64,000 bases of DNA from Escherichia coli (GTDB lineage: Bacteria; Pseudomonadota; Gammaproteobacteria; Enterobacterales; Enterobacteriaceae): NCBI RefSeq assembly GCF_003334785.1, contig NZ_QOWV01000005.1. One strand, given 5' to 3'. How positions within the stretch are numbered: position 1 is the first letter of the stretch; each line of letters starts with the position of its first letter. A program made the position numbers. Positions 6,001 to 18,000 of this stretch are shown here, piece by piece.

Positions 6001-9000
6001 GAGCCTGATGAAAGGGAGGGCGATCCTCCAGTTCAAATATAAGGTCAGAACCTGCATGGTTTATATCAGACATCCCTTCACTCCTTTTAAAGTAAATTTG
6101 ATCATCTGAATTAGTAAAATAAATTCCCACGAATTTGGGGCGCAGGACGCCTTGAGAACGGCTTATCTCATTTTCGCAGTCACTATTTAGTCATCGTTCA
6201 AACAGAGAAACAGGCCGCCGAAGCGGCCATTTATTATTTATATTTTTTCCAGCGCAGTGAGTATTTTCTCCGGTGTGAAATGCCATTCGCGTAACCAGAT
6301 GCCGCATGCATCGTGAATTGCGGTAGCAATCGCCGGAGCTGCGCCATTTACACCGATTTCCGAGATCGATTTCGCCCCGAACGGGCCGACTTTATCGTCG
6401 CTCGGCACCAGCACAGCGCGGAAATCACGCGGAATGTCACCAATTTTCGGTGCGCCGTAACTGCGTAAATCACGCGTTAACGGGTGACCTTCGGCGTCAT
6501 AAATGATCTCTTCGCTCATACTGTGGCCGATAGCACGCAGGGTGGCACCGTAGATTTGTCCCAACGCTAACTCTGGATTGACCGGTGTACCGCAGTCCAG
6601 CAAGGCGTAGAATTTATCCAGGCGGATTTCACCCGTACGCGTGTTGACGGCAACTTCAGCGAAGTTTGCGCCATACGGGAAGGCGAAATCAGGCGTGATA
6701 TAACTGCCAGTTCCCACCAGTGAACCAAAGCCGGTGCCGGTTTCGCCTTTATGGGCAATATCCCCGAAACTAACTTCGCCTTTCTTGCCGCGCACGACGC
6801 CCGGCGTTGCCAGTTGAACATCTGCCACTGGCTCACCCAACATTTGCGCGCCGTGGAACAGAATTTTCTCCCGTAGATTTTCCGCTGCCAAACGCGCCGC
6901 GTTACCCGAGAAGCAAGTACCGGACGAGGCATATGCGCCTTTATCAAACAACGCATGATCGGTATCACCGGAGATAACATGCACGTCCTGCGGTGGGCAG
7001 TGCAGCACTTCTGCTGCCAGTTTCGTCACTACAGTATCCAGACCAGTACCAATATCCGCACCGCCAGAATGAACGATAAAGGTGCCGTCCGATTCCAGTT
7101 TGATCATGCAGTTAGCCTGATCGATATCCGGGATACCCGATTTCTGCATGATAATGGCGACGCCGCGACCGATGTGCCAGTCACCATTTTGCGGTTTCGG
7201 TGACGACCATTGGATCATCTCGCGACCCTGACGCAGGATCTCTTCCAGTGCACAGCTGGCGGCGGAAGGAACGGAGGTCGGCGCTTTACCTTCACCGATT
7301 GCACCGAGAATTTTCAGCTCTTGCCCTTCGTGTACCCGGTTACGTTCGATAATTTCCAGTTGGTCGATCTGTAACTGTTCAGCCAGTTCCGCTAATGCCA
7401 TGGTGATAGCGAAGTTACCTTTCGGTGCGCCATAACCCTGATAAGCACCATTTGGGCAAATGTTGCTGTAGTAGGTGGTGACCTGGAAATCGACGTTATC
7501 GCACGGATATAACGGCAGCGACAGCGCCGGTCCGTTACACGGTACGGTGAGTGAGTGGTTGCCGTAAGGGCCAGTGTTGGCGCGGAAATCCATCTTCACT
7601 GCCGTCAGGCGACCATCTTTTTTCGCTCCCAGTTTGACGGTGACTTTCGCGACGTGACGAGAGGTGTTAGCAATAAACTCTTCTTCACGGGTGTAGCGGA
7701 ACAGTACCGGACGCCCGGTCACGCAGGTTGCCCAGGCGCACACTTCTTCCAGCAGGATGTCCTGTTTGGAACCAAAACCGCCGCCAACTCGCTCTTTAAT
7801 GACATGAACTTTATGCTGTTTCATGCCCACGAGGCGCGCGACCTGGCGGCGTAAGTGCCATGGTACCTGGGTGGAGGCGTGGATAACCAGACGATCGCCG
7901 TCCATACGAGTAAAGCAGATATGTGTTTCAGTCGGGCACTGCTGCGCTTGCGTTGAGTTATAGGTTCGCTCAATGATCACATCGGCATCGGCAAAGCCTT
8001 TGTCCATATCGCCAATATGACCATGAATACTGGCGGCGATATTTTTGCGAGGGCGAGAACCGATCGGGAAGTTGATGATCATATGCTCGCCGCGCTGGGC
8101 TGCATGGCTGTTATCGTCTTCCAGAGTATCTGGCGCACCAGCAACATACACCACCGGTTCATCGTGCACGACAGGCGCATCTTCCGCCATTGCTTCGTCG
8201 ATCGACATTACCGGCTTAAGCACTTCATATTCAACGTCGATGAGCTTCAGTGCTTCGAGCGCAATTTCTTCACTTTCTGCGACGACCGCAGCAACACGAT
8301 CGCCGACGTGACGCATTTTCTTGCCGAACATACGGCGGTCAAGCGGTGACGGTTCCGGTGCGCTCTGACCACCCGGGGTATAGTAGATATCCGGGCAATT
8401 CAGGTGAGTAATAACGTGAACGACGCCCGGTAAGGCTTCAGCTTTGCTGACATCCAGATGAGTAATCAGTGCGTGAGCGTGTGGGCTACGTAACATTTTA
8501 ATGACGCAGGCGTCAGCCGTTACGCGGTCTTCAACATAGCAGGGTTTCGCCTGCACCATTTTCGCGGCATCAGTTTTAGGATAATGCTTACCAATGACTT
8601 CTAGGTCGTCACGGAAAGTCGGAGCGATATCAATGGTGGCCTGCGGATTATTTTTACGTGCAACCGCCAGTTCAATGACCTGATAGTATTGCTGCCAGCC
8701 AGCATCGCGGCTGAACAAACCAGAAAGCGCGTCGTCGATCTCTTCGCGGGTAGGTGCGGCGATGCGATCGAGAAGATCGGTGATAATCAGAGCTGCAGCT
8801 GGATCGTTATAACCAGACTGCACCACGCCAACATCAACCATTGCCTGTTGAACCAGACTTAACTCGTTCCATTTGCCCAGAGATTCTGCGGTACGAATAT
8901 CTGCCTTCTCTAACTGTGCGGCAATAAGCAAGGATGCGTTAACGATATTACCGTTAAAGATTATTGCGTCAGAACCGGCAAACCCGAAACCATCATCACT

Positions 9001-15000: not shown

Positions 15001-18000
15001 GGGTACTGCGGCCTTGACGGATGTTAGTAAACCCTGCGCATAATCTGGGTTGTGAATAATAGTGATATTGCTCTGGTTCGCATAACGTTCGTGCAGTTCA
15101 TTACCACGATAGCCGGTGACTAAAATAATTCGGCTACAAAACTGCAACGCATTTTTGATACTTGTATCAAGAATTGTTCCCTGTTCCCAGGGTAACATCA
15201 TTTTCCATTGCCCCATTCTTGATGATAATCCGGCAGCGGTAATTATACAGTCGATGGCTGACATAGTGGTTCCATTATTTATAGGGGCTAATAACGCCTG
15301 ATAATTGCGTTACTTCCTGATGGATTAAGTTGGGGATAATTTATCCCAGAGAGGTCATAAAGACTCGTGAAAAGTATAGTTGACCCATCGGCATTAGTCA
15401 TTGATTTAGGTGCGCAGAAACGTCCCACTGTGATTTCTGTTGTTGGTGCTGGGGGGAAAACCAGCTTGCTTTTTTGGCTGGCAGAACTGCTCCAGGCTAG
15501 CGGCAGGCGTGTGTTAATCACGACGACGACACATATGTTTATGCCAACGTCTCACTGGCCCGTGGTTTTCTGTCGTGATCCCGCCATGCTTCCTCATGCG
15601 TCTCTTACATCCCCCATTTCATTTTGTTTTCACAGCTGGAAAGCGAACCAGGGAAAAGTGCAGGGATTTACGCCAGAAGCGATTGATGCACTGGTGCAAC
15701 GACCAGAGTGTGACGTAATTCTCATTGAAGCAGATGGCTCGCGTGGAATGCCGTTAAAAGCGCCTGATGAGCACGAACCTTGCATACCCAAAAGCAGTTG
15801 CTGCGTGATTGCTGTGATGGGAGGACATACTTTGGGCGCGAAAGTGAGCACAGAAAATGTCCATCGCTGGTCGCAGTTTGCTGATATTACCGGGTTAACA
15901 CCTGATGCAACCTTGCAACTGAGCGATCTCGTTGCGCTGGTTCGCCACCCTCAGGGGGCGTTTAAAAACGTACCGCAAGGTTGTCGGCGAGTCTGGTTCA
16001 TTAACCGTTTTTCTCAATGTGAGAATGCGATTGCACAAAGCGAGCTCCTTCAACCGCTGCAACAACACGACGTAGAGGCAATCTGGCTGGGCGATATACA
16101 AGAACATCCTGCAATCGCGCGCAGATTTGTGAATTAGCGGCCCGGGTATTCCGGGTTACTGAAAGGATATCCATTGAGGTTGGTATGAATATTTTCACAG
16201 AGGCTGCAAAACTCGAAGAGCAAAATTGTCCGTTTGCTATGGCGCAAATTGTTGATAGCCGAGGCTCGACTCCCCGCCATTCTGCACAAATGTTAGTGCG
16301 CGCCGATGGTTCTATCGTCGGTACAATTGGTGGCGGAATGGTTGAGCGGAAGGTGATTGAAGAGTCGCTTCAGGCATTGCAGGAACGTAAGCCGCGATTA
16401 TTCCATGGACGTATGGCTCGTAACGGTGCGGATGCTGTCGGGTCAGATTGTGGAGGTGCAATGTCAGTATTTATCAGCGTCCATGGTATGCGTCCACGTC
16501 TGGTGTTGATTGGCGCGGGGCATGTCAACCGGGCGATAGCCCAGAGTGCGGCGCTATTAGGATTTGATATTGCCGTTGCTGATATTTATCGCGAAAGCCT
16601 CAATCCTGAACTATTCCCACCATCAACCACGCTTCTCCATGCTGAGTCGTTTGGTGCGGCAGTGGAAGCACTGGATATTCGCCCTGATAATTTTGTCCTG
16701 ATTGCCACGAATAATCAGGATCGTGAAGCCCTCGACAAACTCATTGAACAGCCCATTGCATGGTTGGGGTTGCTGGCAAGTCGTCGCAAGGTTCAGCTTT
16801 TCCTGCGTCAATTGCGTGAGAAAGGCGTGGCTGAAGAACATATTGCCCGTTTACATGCGCCCGTTGGTTACAACATAGGTGCGGAAACGCCGCAGGAGAT
16901 CGCCATCAGCGTGCTGGCAGAAATATTACAGGTGAAAAATAACGCGCCGGGTGGGCTGATGATGAAACCTTCTCATCCTTCCGGACACCAGCTGGTGGTG
17001 ATTCGCGGTGCGGGAGATATCGCCAGTGGTGTGGCGCTACGTCTGTATCATGCGGGTTTTAAAGTGATCATGCTGGAAGTGGAAAAACCGACAGTGATTC
17101 GTTGTACCGTGGCGTTTGCCCAGGCCGTGTTCGATGGCGAAATGACGGTCGAAGGCGTCACTGCTCGCCTGGCAACCAGCTCTGCGGAAGCGATGAAACT
17201 TACCGAACGCGGATTCATTCCTGTGATGGTAGATCCCGCCTGTTCATTGCTTGATGAACTGAAACCGCTTTGCGTGGTGGACGCTATTCTGGCGAAACAG
17301 AATTTGGGAACGCGGGCAGATATGGCACCAGTAACAATCGCGCTTGGGCCGGGCTTTACTGCTGGGAAGGATTGTCATGCGGTAATTGAAACAAATCGCG
17401 GGCACTGGCTCGGTCAGGTGATTTACTCTGGTTGTGCGCAGGAGAATACCGGTGTTCCTGGCAATATTATGGGGCATACCACCCGACGGGTGATCCGTGC
17501 TCCTGCTGCAGGCATTATGCGATCCAACGTGAAATTAGGCGATCTGGTGAAAGAGGGCGATGTGATTGCCTGGATTGGTGAGCATGAAATTAAAGCACCG
17601 TTGACGGGGATGGTGCGTGGCTTGTTGAACGACGGCCTGGCAGTGGTTGGTGGTTTTAAAATTGGTGATATCGATCCTCGTGGTGAAACCGCTGATTTCA
17701 CCAGCGTTTCTGATAAAGCCCGGGCGATTGGCGGCGGCGTACTTGAGGCGTTAATGATGTTGATGCATCAGGGCGTGAAAGCGACAAAAGAAGTGCTGGA
17801 AGTGGCTTAAATGAAAATGGCCGGATGGTATTACCCACCCGGCCTTTAAATTACTGACAAATCACCGTTCCTGTTTTGCCTTCAATCCCTTCTTTCGCTT
17901 TGCTCAATACGGTAATCAGTGCTTCACGACCTGCGCGAGAGCGAGCAAACGAGGCGGCAGCTTCCACTTTAGGCAGCATAGAACCTTTCGCAAAATGACC

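What the first reader, a model, noticed from the sequence alone, without database searches (positions are those of the whole stretch)
6238..17810. Second molybdenum-hydroxylase system (xdhD-ygfM-ssnA-ygfK) with dedicated cofactor genes mocA, yqeB, yqeC
Besides xdhABC there is a separate four-gene operon: a molybdopterin enzyme with fused 2Fe-2S domain, an FAD subunit, an amidohydrolase and a very large Fe-S flavoprotein. Next to it are a molybdenum cofactor cytidylyltransferase and the yqeB/yqeC pair, which I recall as genomic markers of selenium-dependent molybdenum hydroxylases. The embedded amidohydrolase suggests the hydroxylated product is deaminated or ring-opened straight away. Substrate and electron partner cannot be read from the sequence.
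Basis: partly seen in the sequence, partly recalled or inferred. Interest (0 to 1): 0.6.

Follow-up and report, generated by a model that had tools for sequence, protein, structure and literature searches.

The report
E. coli reductive uric-acid degradation genes
This is the well-annotated E. coli gene block that starts anaerobic uric-acid breakdown, whose chemistry was published in 2025; it is ordinary except that its molybdenum enzyme has lost all the cysteines that normally hold its iron-sulfur clusters.

Summary
All score above the curated family cut-offs, and the block occurs in 5186 of 5426 complete E. coli genomes.

The locus is already known. Two 2025 papers show it starts a reductive uric-acid pathway:
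- XdhD-YgfM reduces urate to 2,8-dioxopurine.
- YgfK reduces that product further, and SsnA opens the ring.

The chemistry (hydroxylate, then hydrolyse) was backwards. Published σ54 ChIP-seq sites match the motifs I found upstream of ygfK and inside yqeC.

Selenium dependence is shown for the Clostridium enzyme. For E. coli XdhD it was not tested in any paper I could read.

One thing I found in none of those papers: the "fused 2Fe-2S domain" of XdhD has none of the eight cluster-binding cysteines. Of 71 family members surveyed, 37 have none, 8 have one, 5 keep only the second cluster's four, and 21 keep seven or eight. The FAD subunit gene is kept in both types. The assumed FAD to Fe-S to Mo electron path therefore cannot exist as drawn.

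Verdict: a known system of low interest as filed, with one unexplained feature that can be tested.

The parts
6238..9108 (-). xdhD: molybdenum (MCD) subunit of urate reductase / 2,8-dioxopurine dehydrogenase, 956 aa
   Evidence: TIGR03313 scores 2122.8 bits against a cut-off of 1101.9. Pfam finds Fer2_2, a/b hammerhead, MoCoBD_1 and MoCoBD_2. The catalytic Glu is kept, and Gln replaces the Arg880 equivalent. Biochemistry is in PMC12507026.
8659..9108 (-). Degenerate 2x[2Fe-2S]-type domain of XdhD (residues 1-150) with none of the 8 Cys ligands (DADSSNSD)
   Evidence: There is no Cys before residue 190. Gap-free alignments to 3HRD_D and to E. coli XdhC place D, A, D, S, S, N, S, D at the ligand positions. 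The same state is found in 37 of 71 family members.
9105..9884 (-). ygfM: FAD-binding subunit, 259 aa
   Evidence: TIGR03312 scores 489.7 bits against a cut-off of 241.5. Pfam finds FAD_binding_5 and CO_deh_flav_C. It co-purifies with XdhD. No Cys motif is conserved across homologues.
9901..9925 (-). Hairpin with an 11-bp stem in the ssnA-ygfM gap, without a U-tract
   Evidence: Fold gives dG -21.8 kcal/mol, z = -3.8, and 0 of 200 shuffles fold as well. The terminator scan did not flag it.
9935..11263 (-). ssnA: amidohydrolase that opens the ring of dihydro-2,8-dioxopurine, 442 aa
   Evidence: TIGR03314 scores 737.9 bits and NF005540 709.6 bits. An HxH metal motif (SHNH) lies at residues 61-64. 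Coupled YgfK+SsnA assays are in PMC12507026.
11266..14364 (-). ygfK: NAD(P)H-dependent Fe-S flavoprotein that reductively dearomatises 2,8-dioxopurine, 1032 aa
   Evidence: TIGR03315 scores 1778.7 bits. Pfam finds Fer4_20, Pyr_redox_2 and C-terminal Fer4 domains. Cys clusters lie at 455-511 and 898-948.
13015..14364 (-). YgfK N-terminal 450 residues: FMN-type TIM barrel like dihydropyrimidine and dihydroorotate dehydrogenases (no Pfam match)
   Evidence: The AlphaFold2 model has pLDDT 86.1. The top Foldseek hits are pig DPD and DHODH at probability 1.00.
14437..14453 (-). σ54 promoter of ygfK (GTGGTGCGATTGTTGCT)
   Evidence: Found in the motif scan and read in the sequence. It is identical to ChIP-seq site OS31 assigned to ygfK in PMC4591121.
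14686..15264 (-). mocA: CTP:molybdopterin cytidylyltransferase, 192 aa
   Evidence: TIGR03310 scores 214.2 bits against a cut-off of 186.45. Its function is cited in PMC2997495.
15367..16137 (+). yqeC: P-loop-like accessory protein (GAGGKTS), 256 aa
   Evidence: TIGR03172 scores 240.9 bits. Pfam finds PF19842. No solved relative exists.
15768..15784 (+). Intragenic σ54 promoter inside yqeC that drives yqeB (TGAGCACGAACCTTGCA)
   Evidence: Found in the motif scan. It is identical to site IS34. Mutating it abolished detectable YqeB protein (PMC4591121).
16185..17810 (+). yqeB: XdhC-type Moco chaperone (residues 12-247) fused to the EF2563/TIGR03309 module (residues 260-541)
6213..6228 (-). Terminator-like hairpin after xdhD
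   Evidence: Terminator scan; fold gives dG -14.1 kcal/mol.
17819..17844 (.). Hairpin between the convergent genes yqeB and arcC
   Evidence: Terminator scan; fold gives dG -16.7 kcal/mol, z = -3.5.

Best explanation
The region encodes the first three steps of the reductive (2,8-dioxopurine) pathway of anaerobic uric-acid degradation, plus the genes that mature the molybdenum cofactor.

Shown by published experiment:
- XdhD-YgfM reduces urate to 2,8-dioxopurine.
- YgfK, using NAD(P)H, together with SsnA converts that to ureidomethylhydantoin.
- Neighbouring genes (hyuA, ygeW, ygeY, ygeX, yqeA) take it on to pyruvate, ammonia and carbamoyl phosphate.
- MocA makes the cytosine-dinucleotide form of the molybdenum cofactor.
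- σ54 binds upstream of ygfK. A σ54 promoter inside yqeC is needed for YqeB protein.

Shown here:
- YgfK is built like a domain-permuted dihydropyrimidine dehydrogenase: an FMN barrel first, then the FAD/NAD(P)H module, then a ferredoxin domain.
- YqeB is an XdhC-type chaperone fused to a Rossmann-like domain plus a lipoyl-like barrel.
- XdhD has lost all eight Fe-S ligands but keeps its FAD partner.

Inferred:
- ygfK-ssnA-ygfM-xdhD is one σ54 transcript, probably activated by YgeV.
- YqeB and YqeC mature and insert the cofactor into XdhD, probably adding a labile selenium ligand as in the clostridial enzyme.
- Electrons do not reach the molybdenum by the canonical FAD to 2x[2Fe-2S] to Mo wire.
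For: - Family assignment of all seven genes above curated cut-offs, and the RefSeq annotation.
- Enzyme assays and mutant phenotypes in E. coli. XdhD co-purifies with a ~30 kDa protein and makes 2,8-dioxopurine from urate plus NADH. YgfK+SsnA+NAD(P)H make ureidomethylhydantoin. A ΔxdhD strain accumulates urate and makes no 2,8-dioxopurine (PMC12507026).
- Independent reconstruction of the pathway with E. coli YgfK, SsnA and the downstream enzymes, using C. sporogenes DOPDH for the first step.
- Dependence on selD shown for the C. sporogenes enzyme, and on yqeB in C. difficile.
- σ54 sites and gene junctions.
- YgfK fold and YqeB fold.
- Loss of the Cys ligands and its spread through the family.
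Against: - The only in vitro evidence for E. coli XdhD-YgfM is an end-point LC-MS assay with 10 µM enzyme, 1 mM NADH and no reported rate. NADH as the physiological donor is therefore not established.
- Older genetics implicate formate, AegA and YgfT in E. coli urate use.
- Selenium dependence of the E. coli enzyme was tested in none of the papers I could read.
- yqeC was dispensable in C. difficile.
- The single-transcript claim rests on sequence and ChIP-seq only. A strong hairpin sits between ssnA and ygfM, and Li et al. expressed xdhD from what they call its 'native promoter'.
Confidence: 0.85

Rival explanations
1. One reading: XdhD is an oxidative hydroxylase, and its hydroxylated product is at once deaminated or ring-opened by SsnA.
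For: XdhD belongs to the hydroxylase family and keeps the catalytic Glu. SsnA's nearest characterised relatives are deaminases and chlorohydrolases. The clostridial enzyme is reversible in vitro.
Against: The measured reaction is reduction of urate to 2,8-dioxopurine. SsnA alone does not act on that product and needs YgfK plus NAD(P)H first. A ΔxdhD strain accumulates urate. The closest solved relative of XdhD is a reductive dehydroxylase, 4-hydroxybenzoyl-CoA reductase.
Confidence: 0.05
2. The operon is a selenate reductase. This is the origin of the RefSeq name 'putative selenate reductase subunit YgfK' and of the TIGRFAM names Se_sel_red_*.
For: The naming. Haft & Self cite Bebien et al. 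2002 for a selenate-reduction phenotype in this region.
Against: Purified enzymes carry out defined purine chemistry. The genes are induced by urate. Haft & Self themselves argued against this reading. Homologues sit in uricolytic clusters across many phyla.
Confidence: 0.05
3. E. coli XdhD is not selenium-dependent. It carries the ordinary sulfido-molybdenum cofactor. YqeB acts only as the XdhC-type chaperone shared by XdhABC and XdhD, and YqeC is dispensable.
For: Active enzyme was obtained with no mention of selenium. Johnstone & Self state that E. coli likely makes no such enzymes. No labile-selenium enzyme has been seen in E. coli. YqeB has a full XdhC module and was proposed as a shared chaperone. 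The YqeB C-terminal module has no invariant Cys to carry selenium. yqeC was dispensable in C. difficile.
Against: [quoted passage not shown] Every gut strain carrying the urate cluster has YqeBC and SelD, and the C. sporogenes enzyme for the same reaction is inactive when made in a selD mutant. Rich media contain trace selenium, so activity without added selenium proves little.
Confidence: 0.3
4. XdhD-YgfM uses the canonical intramolecular wire NADH to FAD to two [2Fe-2S] clusters to Mo, as drawn by analogy with R. capsulatus xanthine dehydrogenase.
For: The complex is modelled as resembling 1JRO and is predicted with high confidence. NADH supported product formation. The FAD gene lies directly upstream in 63 of 70 homologues.
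Against: All eight cluster ligands are absent from XdhD. YgfM has no conserved Cys motif that could hold a substitute cluster. The loss is conserved across phyla and the domain stays 43-56% identical, so it is not a sequencing or strain artefact. From established structures of this family, FAD and Mo lie far beyond single-step tunnelling range without the clusters (my knowledge, not measured here).
Confidence: 0.1

Closest known systems
2,8-dioxopurine dehydrogenase (DOPDH, XdhAC) of Clostridium sporogenes and XdhD of C. difficile
   Same: Same reaction (urate to 2,8-dioxopurine and back), same pathway position, same gene neighbours (ygfK or uacX, ssnA, hyuA, ygeW/X/Y), and co-occurrence with yqeB, yqeC and selD.
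   Different: The clostridial enzymes have no YgfM FAD subunit, and their physiological donor is unknown or thought to be ferredoxin. The C. sporogenes protein is described as having Fe-S binding domains. E. coli XdhD has an FAD partner but no Fe-S ligands. Selenium dependence is shown only for the clostridial enzyme.
Xanthine dehydrogenase XdhABC of E. coli (same window) and R. capsulatus XDH (1JRO)
   Same: Same family, the same Mo-domain architecture, the GGGFG(S/N)KQD motif, the catalytic Glu and an FAD subunit of the same Pfam families.
   Different: XdhD has the Fe-S module fused at its N-terminus rather than as a separate XdhC subunit, and all 8 Cys are lost. It has Gln in place of the Arg880 equivalent and a ~33-residue insertion. 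It attacks C6 of the purine in the reductive direction.
4-hydroxybenzoyl-CoA reductase (1RM6)
   Same: It is the best solved-structure match to XdhD (E=3.7e-80). It is also a member of the family that runs in the reductive, dehydroxylating direction.
   Different: From my knowledge, that enzyme keeps both 2Fe-2S clusters and adds a [4Fe-4S] cluster in its FAD subunit for reverse electron flow. YgfM has no conserved Cys motif and XdhD has no clusters.
Nicotinate dehydrogenase of Eubacterium barkeri (3HRD), a structurally characterised selenium-dependent molybdenum hydroxylase
   Same: Its small Fe-S subunit is the best match to the XdhD N-terminal domain (E=1.5e-17, 152 residues without gaps). 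Its Mo subunits also match XdhD.
   Different: 3HRD_D has all eight Cys and XdhD has none. The subunit organisation differs.
Dihydropyrimidine dehydrogenase (pig DPD, PydA) with dihydropyrimidinase (PydB)
   Same: YgfK contains the same parts: an FMN barrel, a GltD-like FAD/NAD(P)H module with Fer4_20, and a C-terminal di-cluster ferredoxin. The logic is the same: reduce the ring, then open it with an amidohydrolase.
   Different: The domain order is permuted, with the FMN barrel at the N-terminus in YgfK. The barrel has no detectable sequence match in Pfam or PDB. The substrate is a purine. SsnA belongs to the deaminase/chlorohydrolase branch of amidohydrolases, not the dihydropyrimidinase branch.

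Membership tests
Xanthine oxidase / molybdenum hydroxylase family (XdhD) | Two molybdopterin-binding domains plus the a/b hammerhead domain | tested here: met
   Pfam MoCoBD_1 at 3.8e-72, MoCoBD_2 at 6.4e-68 and Ald_Xan_dh_C at 6e-31.
Xanthine oxidase / molybdenum hydroxylase family (XdhD) | Conserved active-site glutamate (bovine Glu1261 equivalent) | tested here: met
   XdhD 'KSISEIGV' aligns with XdhA 'KSLGEPPI'. The mapping to bovine numbering is from my knowledge.
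Xanthine oxidase / molybdenum hydroxylase family (XdhD) | Two [2Fe-2S] clusters held by eight conserved cysteines | tested here: not met
   There is no Cys in residues 1-189. The ligand positions read D, A, D, S, S, N, S, D when aligned to 3HRD_D and XdhC.
Xanthine oxidase / molybdenum hydroxylase family (XdhD) | FAD-binding subunit of the CO-dehydrogenase flavoprotein type | tested here: met
   YgfM has FAD_binding_5 and CO_deh_flav_C. It co-purifies with XdhD.
Selenium-dependent molybdenum hydroxylases | Labile, non-selenocysteine selenium needed for activity | not testable with these tools
   Shown for C. sporogenes DOPDH. Not examined for E. coli XdhD.
Selenium-dependent molybdenum hydroxylases | Genomic markers yqeB (TIGR03309) and yqeC (TIGR03172) next to the hydroxylase genes | tested here: met
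   Both score above their cut-offs and lie about 1 kb upstream of ygfK.
Selenium-dependent molybdenum hydroxylases | selD present in the genome | not tested
   selD is not in the window. E. coli is known to have it (b1764 in the table quoted).
TIGR03313 / 03312 / 03314 / 03315 (XdhD, YgfM, SsnA, YgfK families) | Whole-protein score above the curated cut-off | tested here: met
   2122.8 against 1101.9; 489.7 against 241.5; 737.9 against 455.5; 1778.7 against 835.3.
Dihydropyrimidine-dehydrogenase-like Fe-S flavoproteins (YgfK) | FMN TIM barrel, GltD-like FAD/NAD(P)H module and Fe-S cluster motifs | tested here: met
   Fold match to DPD and DHODH. Fer4_20, Pyr_redox_2 and Fer4 domains. Cys clusters at 455-511 and 898-948.
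Dihydropyrimidine-dehydrogenase-like Fe-S flavoproteins (YgfK) | Same domain order as pig DPD | tested here: not met
   The barrel occupies residues 1-450, ahead of the GltD-like module at 453-847. In DPD, residues 63-499 of the chain match YgfK's GltD-like module; the barrel following that module is from my knowledge of the DPD structure.
Amidohydrolase superfamily (SsnA) | Family profile match and HxH metal motif | tested here: met
   NF005540 scores 709.6 against a cut-off of 444. 'SHNH' lies at residues 61-64. PDB relatives are amidohydrolases and deaminases.
XdhC family of Moco chaperones (YqeB N-terminal half) | XdhC_CoxI and XdhC_C domains | tested here: met
   Pfam 9.8e-20 and 1.2e-32. 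PDB hits 2WE7 and 3ON5.
σ54-dependent promoters | GG at -24 and GC at -12 with correct spacing, plus σ54 occupancy | tested here: met
   Motifs at 14453-14437(-) and 15768-15784(+). Occupancy and promoter mutagenesis are from PMC4591121.

The most novel reading that the evidence does not exclude
E. coli-type XdhD-YgfM would be an unrecognised variant of the xanthine-oxidase family. It keeps the FAD subunit and the fold of the Fe-S domain but binds no Fe-S cluster. That would make the internal FAD to Mo wire broken. Electrons would have to reach molybdenum by a non-canonical route, for example an external partner, a ping-pong reaction at the Mo site, or a different cofactor in the relic domain.

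The family also shows stepwise loss: 8 Cys, then only the second cluster's 4, then none. That would make it a natural series for studying how such a wire is abandoned. Coupled to this, E. coli would be the long-sought tractable host of a labile-selenium molybdenum enzyme.
Probability: 0.45. Interest if true: 0.6.

Novelty: already known. Interest (0 to 1): 0.3.

Why it matters
As filed, the finding re-describes a locus that RefSeq already annotates gene by gene. Its pathway was solved in 2025, so it adds nothing new. The pathway itself matters for gut clearance of urate and for gout.

Two follow-ups are worth doing.
- Selenium: whether E. coli makes a labile-selenium molybdenum cofactor has been open since 2008. 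It is now directly testable, because the XdhD reaction and its fluorescent product are known.
- Fe-S loss: the published electron-transfer picture for XdhD-YgfM assumes Fe-S clusters that the sequence cannot bind. This bears on which reductant drives the first step, and so on how to engineer uricolytic probiotics.

Tried and rejected
1. A compensating Fe-S cluster in YgfM, as in the FAD subunit of 4-hydroxybenzoyl-CoA reductase. No Cys column is conserved across the partners of Cys-less XdhD; C161 and C251 are conserved only in gammaproteobacteria. Rejected.
2. Co-localised ferredoxin-type donors. YgfS-like or YgfT-N-terminal-like genes were found within ±10 kb in none of 41 loci; the only hits were the GltD-like part of YgfK. 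No support.
3. The Cys loss as a strain defect or pseudogene. It is 100% conserved in E. coli and shared by Kluyvera, Aeromonas, Photobacterium, Edwardsiella, Serratia, Hafnia, Morganella, Spirochaetes and Clostridiales. The domain remains 43-56% identical. Rejected.
4. A single origin of the loss. The neighbour-joining tree of the Mo part nests full-Cys groups inside the Cys-less clade, yet the replacement residues are similar everywhere. Unresolved; the tree is crude.
5. Rfam found no RNA family in the region.
6. σ70 promoter and terminator scans were at chance level.
7. A shared activator site by 9-mer comparison was too noisy. Only the TTATCA/TGATAA enrichment stood out.
9. Iwadate & Kato 2019 and Xi et al. 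2000 are not held in the library. What I say about them is second-hand.
10. PDB has no close structure for XdhD, YgfK, the YqeB C-terminal module or YqeC.

Full report
**What is there.** The window is E. coli chromosome. Region 6238-17810 is 100% identical to several complete genomes and is present in 5186 of 5426 complete E. coli assemblies.
- xdhD 6238-9108(-)
- ygfM 9105-9884(-)
- ssnA 9935-11263(-)
- ygfK 11266-14364(-)
- mocA 14686-15264(-)
- yqeC 15367-16137(+)
- yqeB 16185-17810(+)

All seven proteins exceed the curated NCBIfam cut-offs for TIGR03313, 03312, 03314, 03315, 03310, 03172 and 03309. RefSeq already names every one of them. The surrounding window holds the rest of a purine block: ygfT, ygfS, ghxQ, guaD and xanQ on one side, and arcC/yqeA, hyuA, ygeY, dpaL/ygeX, ygeW, ygeV and xdhABC on the other.

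**What it does, from the literature.** Two 2025 studies solved the pathway. Li et al. (PMC12507026) purified E. coli XdhD, which co-purified with a ~30 kDa protein taken to be YgfM. They showed that it reduces uric acid to 2,8-dioxopurine ("yanthine") with NADH. YgfK plus SsnA plus NAD(P)H convert that compound to ureidomethylhydantoin, and neither enzyme acts alone. A ΔxdhD strain accumulates urate and makes no 2,8-dioxopurine, and a ΔygfK strain makes no ureidomethylhydantoin. Liu et al. [quoted passage not shown]

The molybdenum enzyme dehydroxylates, a second reductase dearomatises, and only then does the amidohydrolase open the ring.

**Anatomy checked here.**
- XdhD: Pfam gives Fer2_2 (73-145), the hammerhead domain and both molybdopterin-binding domains.
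- YgfM: the two flavoprotein domains.
- YgfK, C-terminal part: Fer4_20, Pyr_redox_2 and a C-terminal ferredoxin, with Cys clusters at 455-511 and 898-948.
- YgfK, first 450 residues: these match nothing in Pfam or PDB by sequence. An AlphaFold2 model built on 32 homologues (pLDDT 86) matches pig dihydropyrimidine dehydrogenase and dihydroorotate dehydrogenases (Foldseek probability 1.00). YgfK is thus a domain-permuted analogue of DPD, in line with the modelling mentioned by Li et al..
- YqeC: a Walker-A-like GAGGKTS motif and no solved relative.

**Expression.** The junctions fit one operon: ygfK stop, 2 nt, ssnA start; a 50-nt ssnA-ygfM gap; an ATGA overlap between ygfM and xdhD; and a terminator-like hairpin after xdhD. 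A -24/-12 motif, GTGGTGCGATTGTTGCT, lies at 14453-14437(-), about 70 nt before the ygfK start. It is identical to the σ54 ChIP-seq site that Bonocora et al. assigned to ygfK (PMC4591121). A second motif inside yqeC (15768-15784) is their validated intragenic promoter, and mutating it abolished detectable YqeB protein. Similar sites precede ygeW and xdhA. The activator is presumably YgeV, encoded at 24458-26236, which earlier genetics tied to urate use. An 11-bp hairpin without a U-tract sits between ssnA and ygfM, and its role is unknown.

**Selenium.** Direct evidence exists for clostridia:
- DOPDH purified from a C. sporogenes selD mutant is inactive.
- C. difficile needs selD and yqeB, but not yqeC, to use xanthine and urate.

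For E. coli XdhD I found no test. Li et al. never mention selenium, YqeB or MocA. Haft & Self noted that such an enzyme had not been observed in E. coli. Johnstone & Self wrote that E. coli likely makes none. This part of the interpretation remains an inference, which I rate at roughly 0.6-0.7.

**The unexpected feature.** XdhD has no cysteine before residue 190. Its N-terminal 150 residues nevertheless align without gaps to the Fe-S subunit of nicotinate dehydrogenase (E=1.5e-17) and to E. coli XdhC. At the eight cluster-ligand positions XdhD reads D, A, D, S, S, N, S, D.

This is not a local defect. Among the 150 best 50%-identity representatives, the closest relatives share the loss and one is half-way (DGDG-CCCC). 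A scan of species-representative genomes returned 78 loci. Of the 71 full-length family members (E. coli plus 70 from the scan):

| Ligand state | Members |
|---|---|
| No ligand Cys | 37 |
| One Cys | 8 |
| Only the second cluster's four Cys | 5 |
| Seven or eight Cys | 21 |

The Cys-less forms occur in Kluyvera, Arsenophonus, Aeromonas, Photobacterium, Edwardsiella, Serratia, Hafnia, Morganella, a Rhodocyclaceae genome, many Spirochaetes, and Clostridiales. Their N-terminal domain stays 43-56% identical to that of E. coli, so it is under selection. Both Cys-less and full-Cys forms sit next to ssnA and ygfK, and both have a YgfM-like gene directly upstream (63 of 70).

YgfM offers no conserved Cys motif as a substitute, and no ferredoxin-type gene is co-localised. 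None of the papers I could read mentions the loss.

The consequence is that the FAD to 2x[2Fe-2S] to Mo wire, assumed by analogy with R. capsulatus XDH, cannot exist in that form. The supporting assay was an end-point measurement with 10 µM enzyme and no rate. How electrons reach the molybdenum is open. The formate, AegA and YgfT dependence reported earlier for E. coli may be relevant.

**Comparison and verdict.** The system is a member of the xanthine-oxidase family by its Mo domains, catalytic Glu and FAD subunit. It fails the family's Fe-S criterion.
- Its nearest functional relative is clostridial DOPDH.
- Its nearest solved structure is 4-hydroxybenzoyl-CoA reductase, another reductive member.
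- YgfK and SsnA mirror the DPD and dihydropyrimidinase logic of pyrimidine degradation.

The locus and its function are already known, so the finding as filed scores low. The Cys-less Fe-S relic and the untested selenium requirement in E. coli are the two points worth an experiment.

Noticed in passing
window 8659-9108 (-), XdhD residues 1-150: All eight [2Fe-2S] ligand cysteines are replaced (DADSSNSD). The same state occurs in 37 of 71 family members across several phyla, with half-lost intermediates in Chloroflexi. I found no mention of it in the papers I could read.
   Followed up: yes
window 17811-17850, compared with L001 30608-30787: The closest E. coli genomes carry a 180-bp REP-like segment between yqeB and arcC that this window lacks. 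It is bounded by a direct repeat of the hairpin GGCCGGATGGTATTACCCACCCGGCC.
   Followed up: partly
window 14365-14685, 23983-24457, 29939-30328: The hexamer TTATCA/TGATAA occurs 8 times upstream of the three σ54 promoters (ygfK, ygeW, xdhA), against 1.3±1.1 in shuffles (0 of 2000 reach 8). This includes the palindrome TTATCATAATGATAA at 14621-14635. It is a candidate site for the activator YgeV.
   Followed up: partly
window 9901-9925 (-): A perfect 11-bp-stem hairpin lies in the ssnA-ygfM gap (dG -21.8 kcal/mol, z -3.8) with no U-tract. It may be a processing or stability element, or a partial terminator inside the operon.
   Followed up: partly
window 6238-9108 (-), XdhD near residue 557: XdhD has Gln (AYQGYGAPK) where XdhA has Arg (AMRGYGAPQ). 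From my knowledge this corresponds to the substrate-orienting Arg880 of bovine xanthine oxidase. XdhD also has a ~33-residue insertion relative to XdhA.
   Followed up: partly
window 16962-17807 (+), YqeB residues 260-541: The EF2563/TIGR03309 module folds as a Rossmann-like domain plus a biotinyl/lipoyl-like barrel. It lacks the attachment lysine (GMVRG) and has no invariant Cys. No whole-chain structural match was found.
   Followed up: yes
window 9935-11329 (-): The mechanical ORF for ssnA extends to a GTG at 11329 (464 aa), overlapping the end of ygfK. The annotated ATG at 11263 (442 aa) matches the family models from residue 1.
   Followed up: partly
window 60733-61016 (+) and 31187-31257 (+): The tandem sRNAs OmrA and OmrB, and a tRNA gene. 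RefSeq annotates frameshifted remnants of a type III secretion system beyond the tRNA.
   Followed up: no
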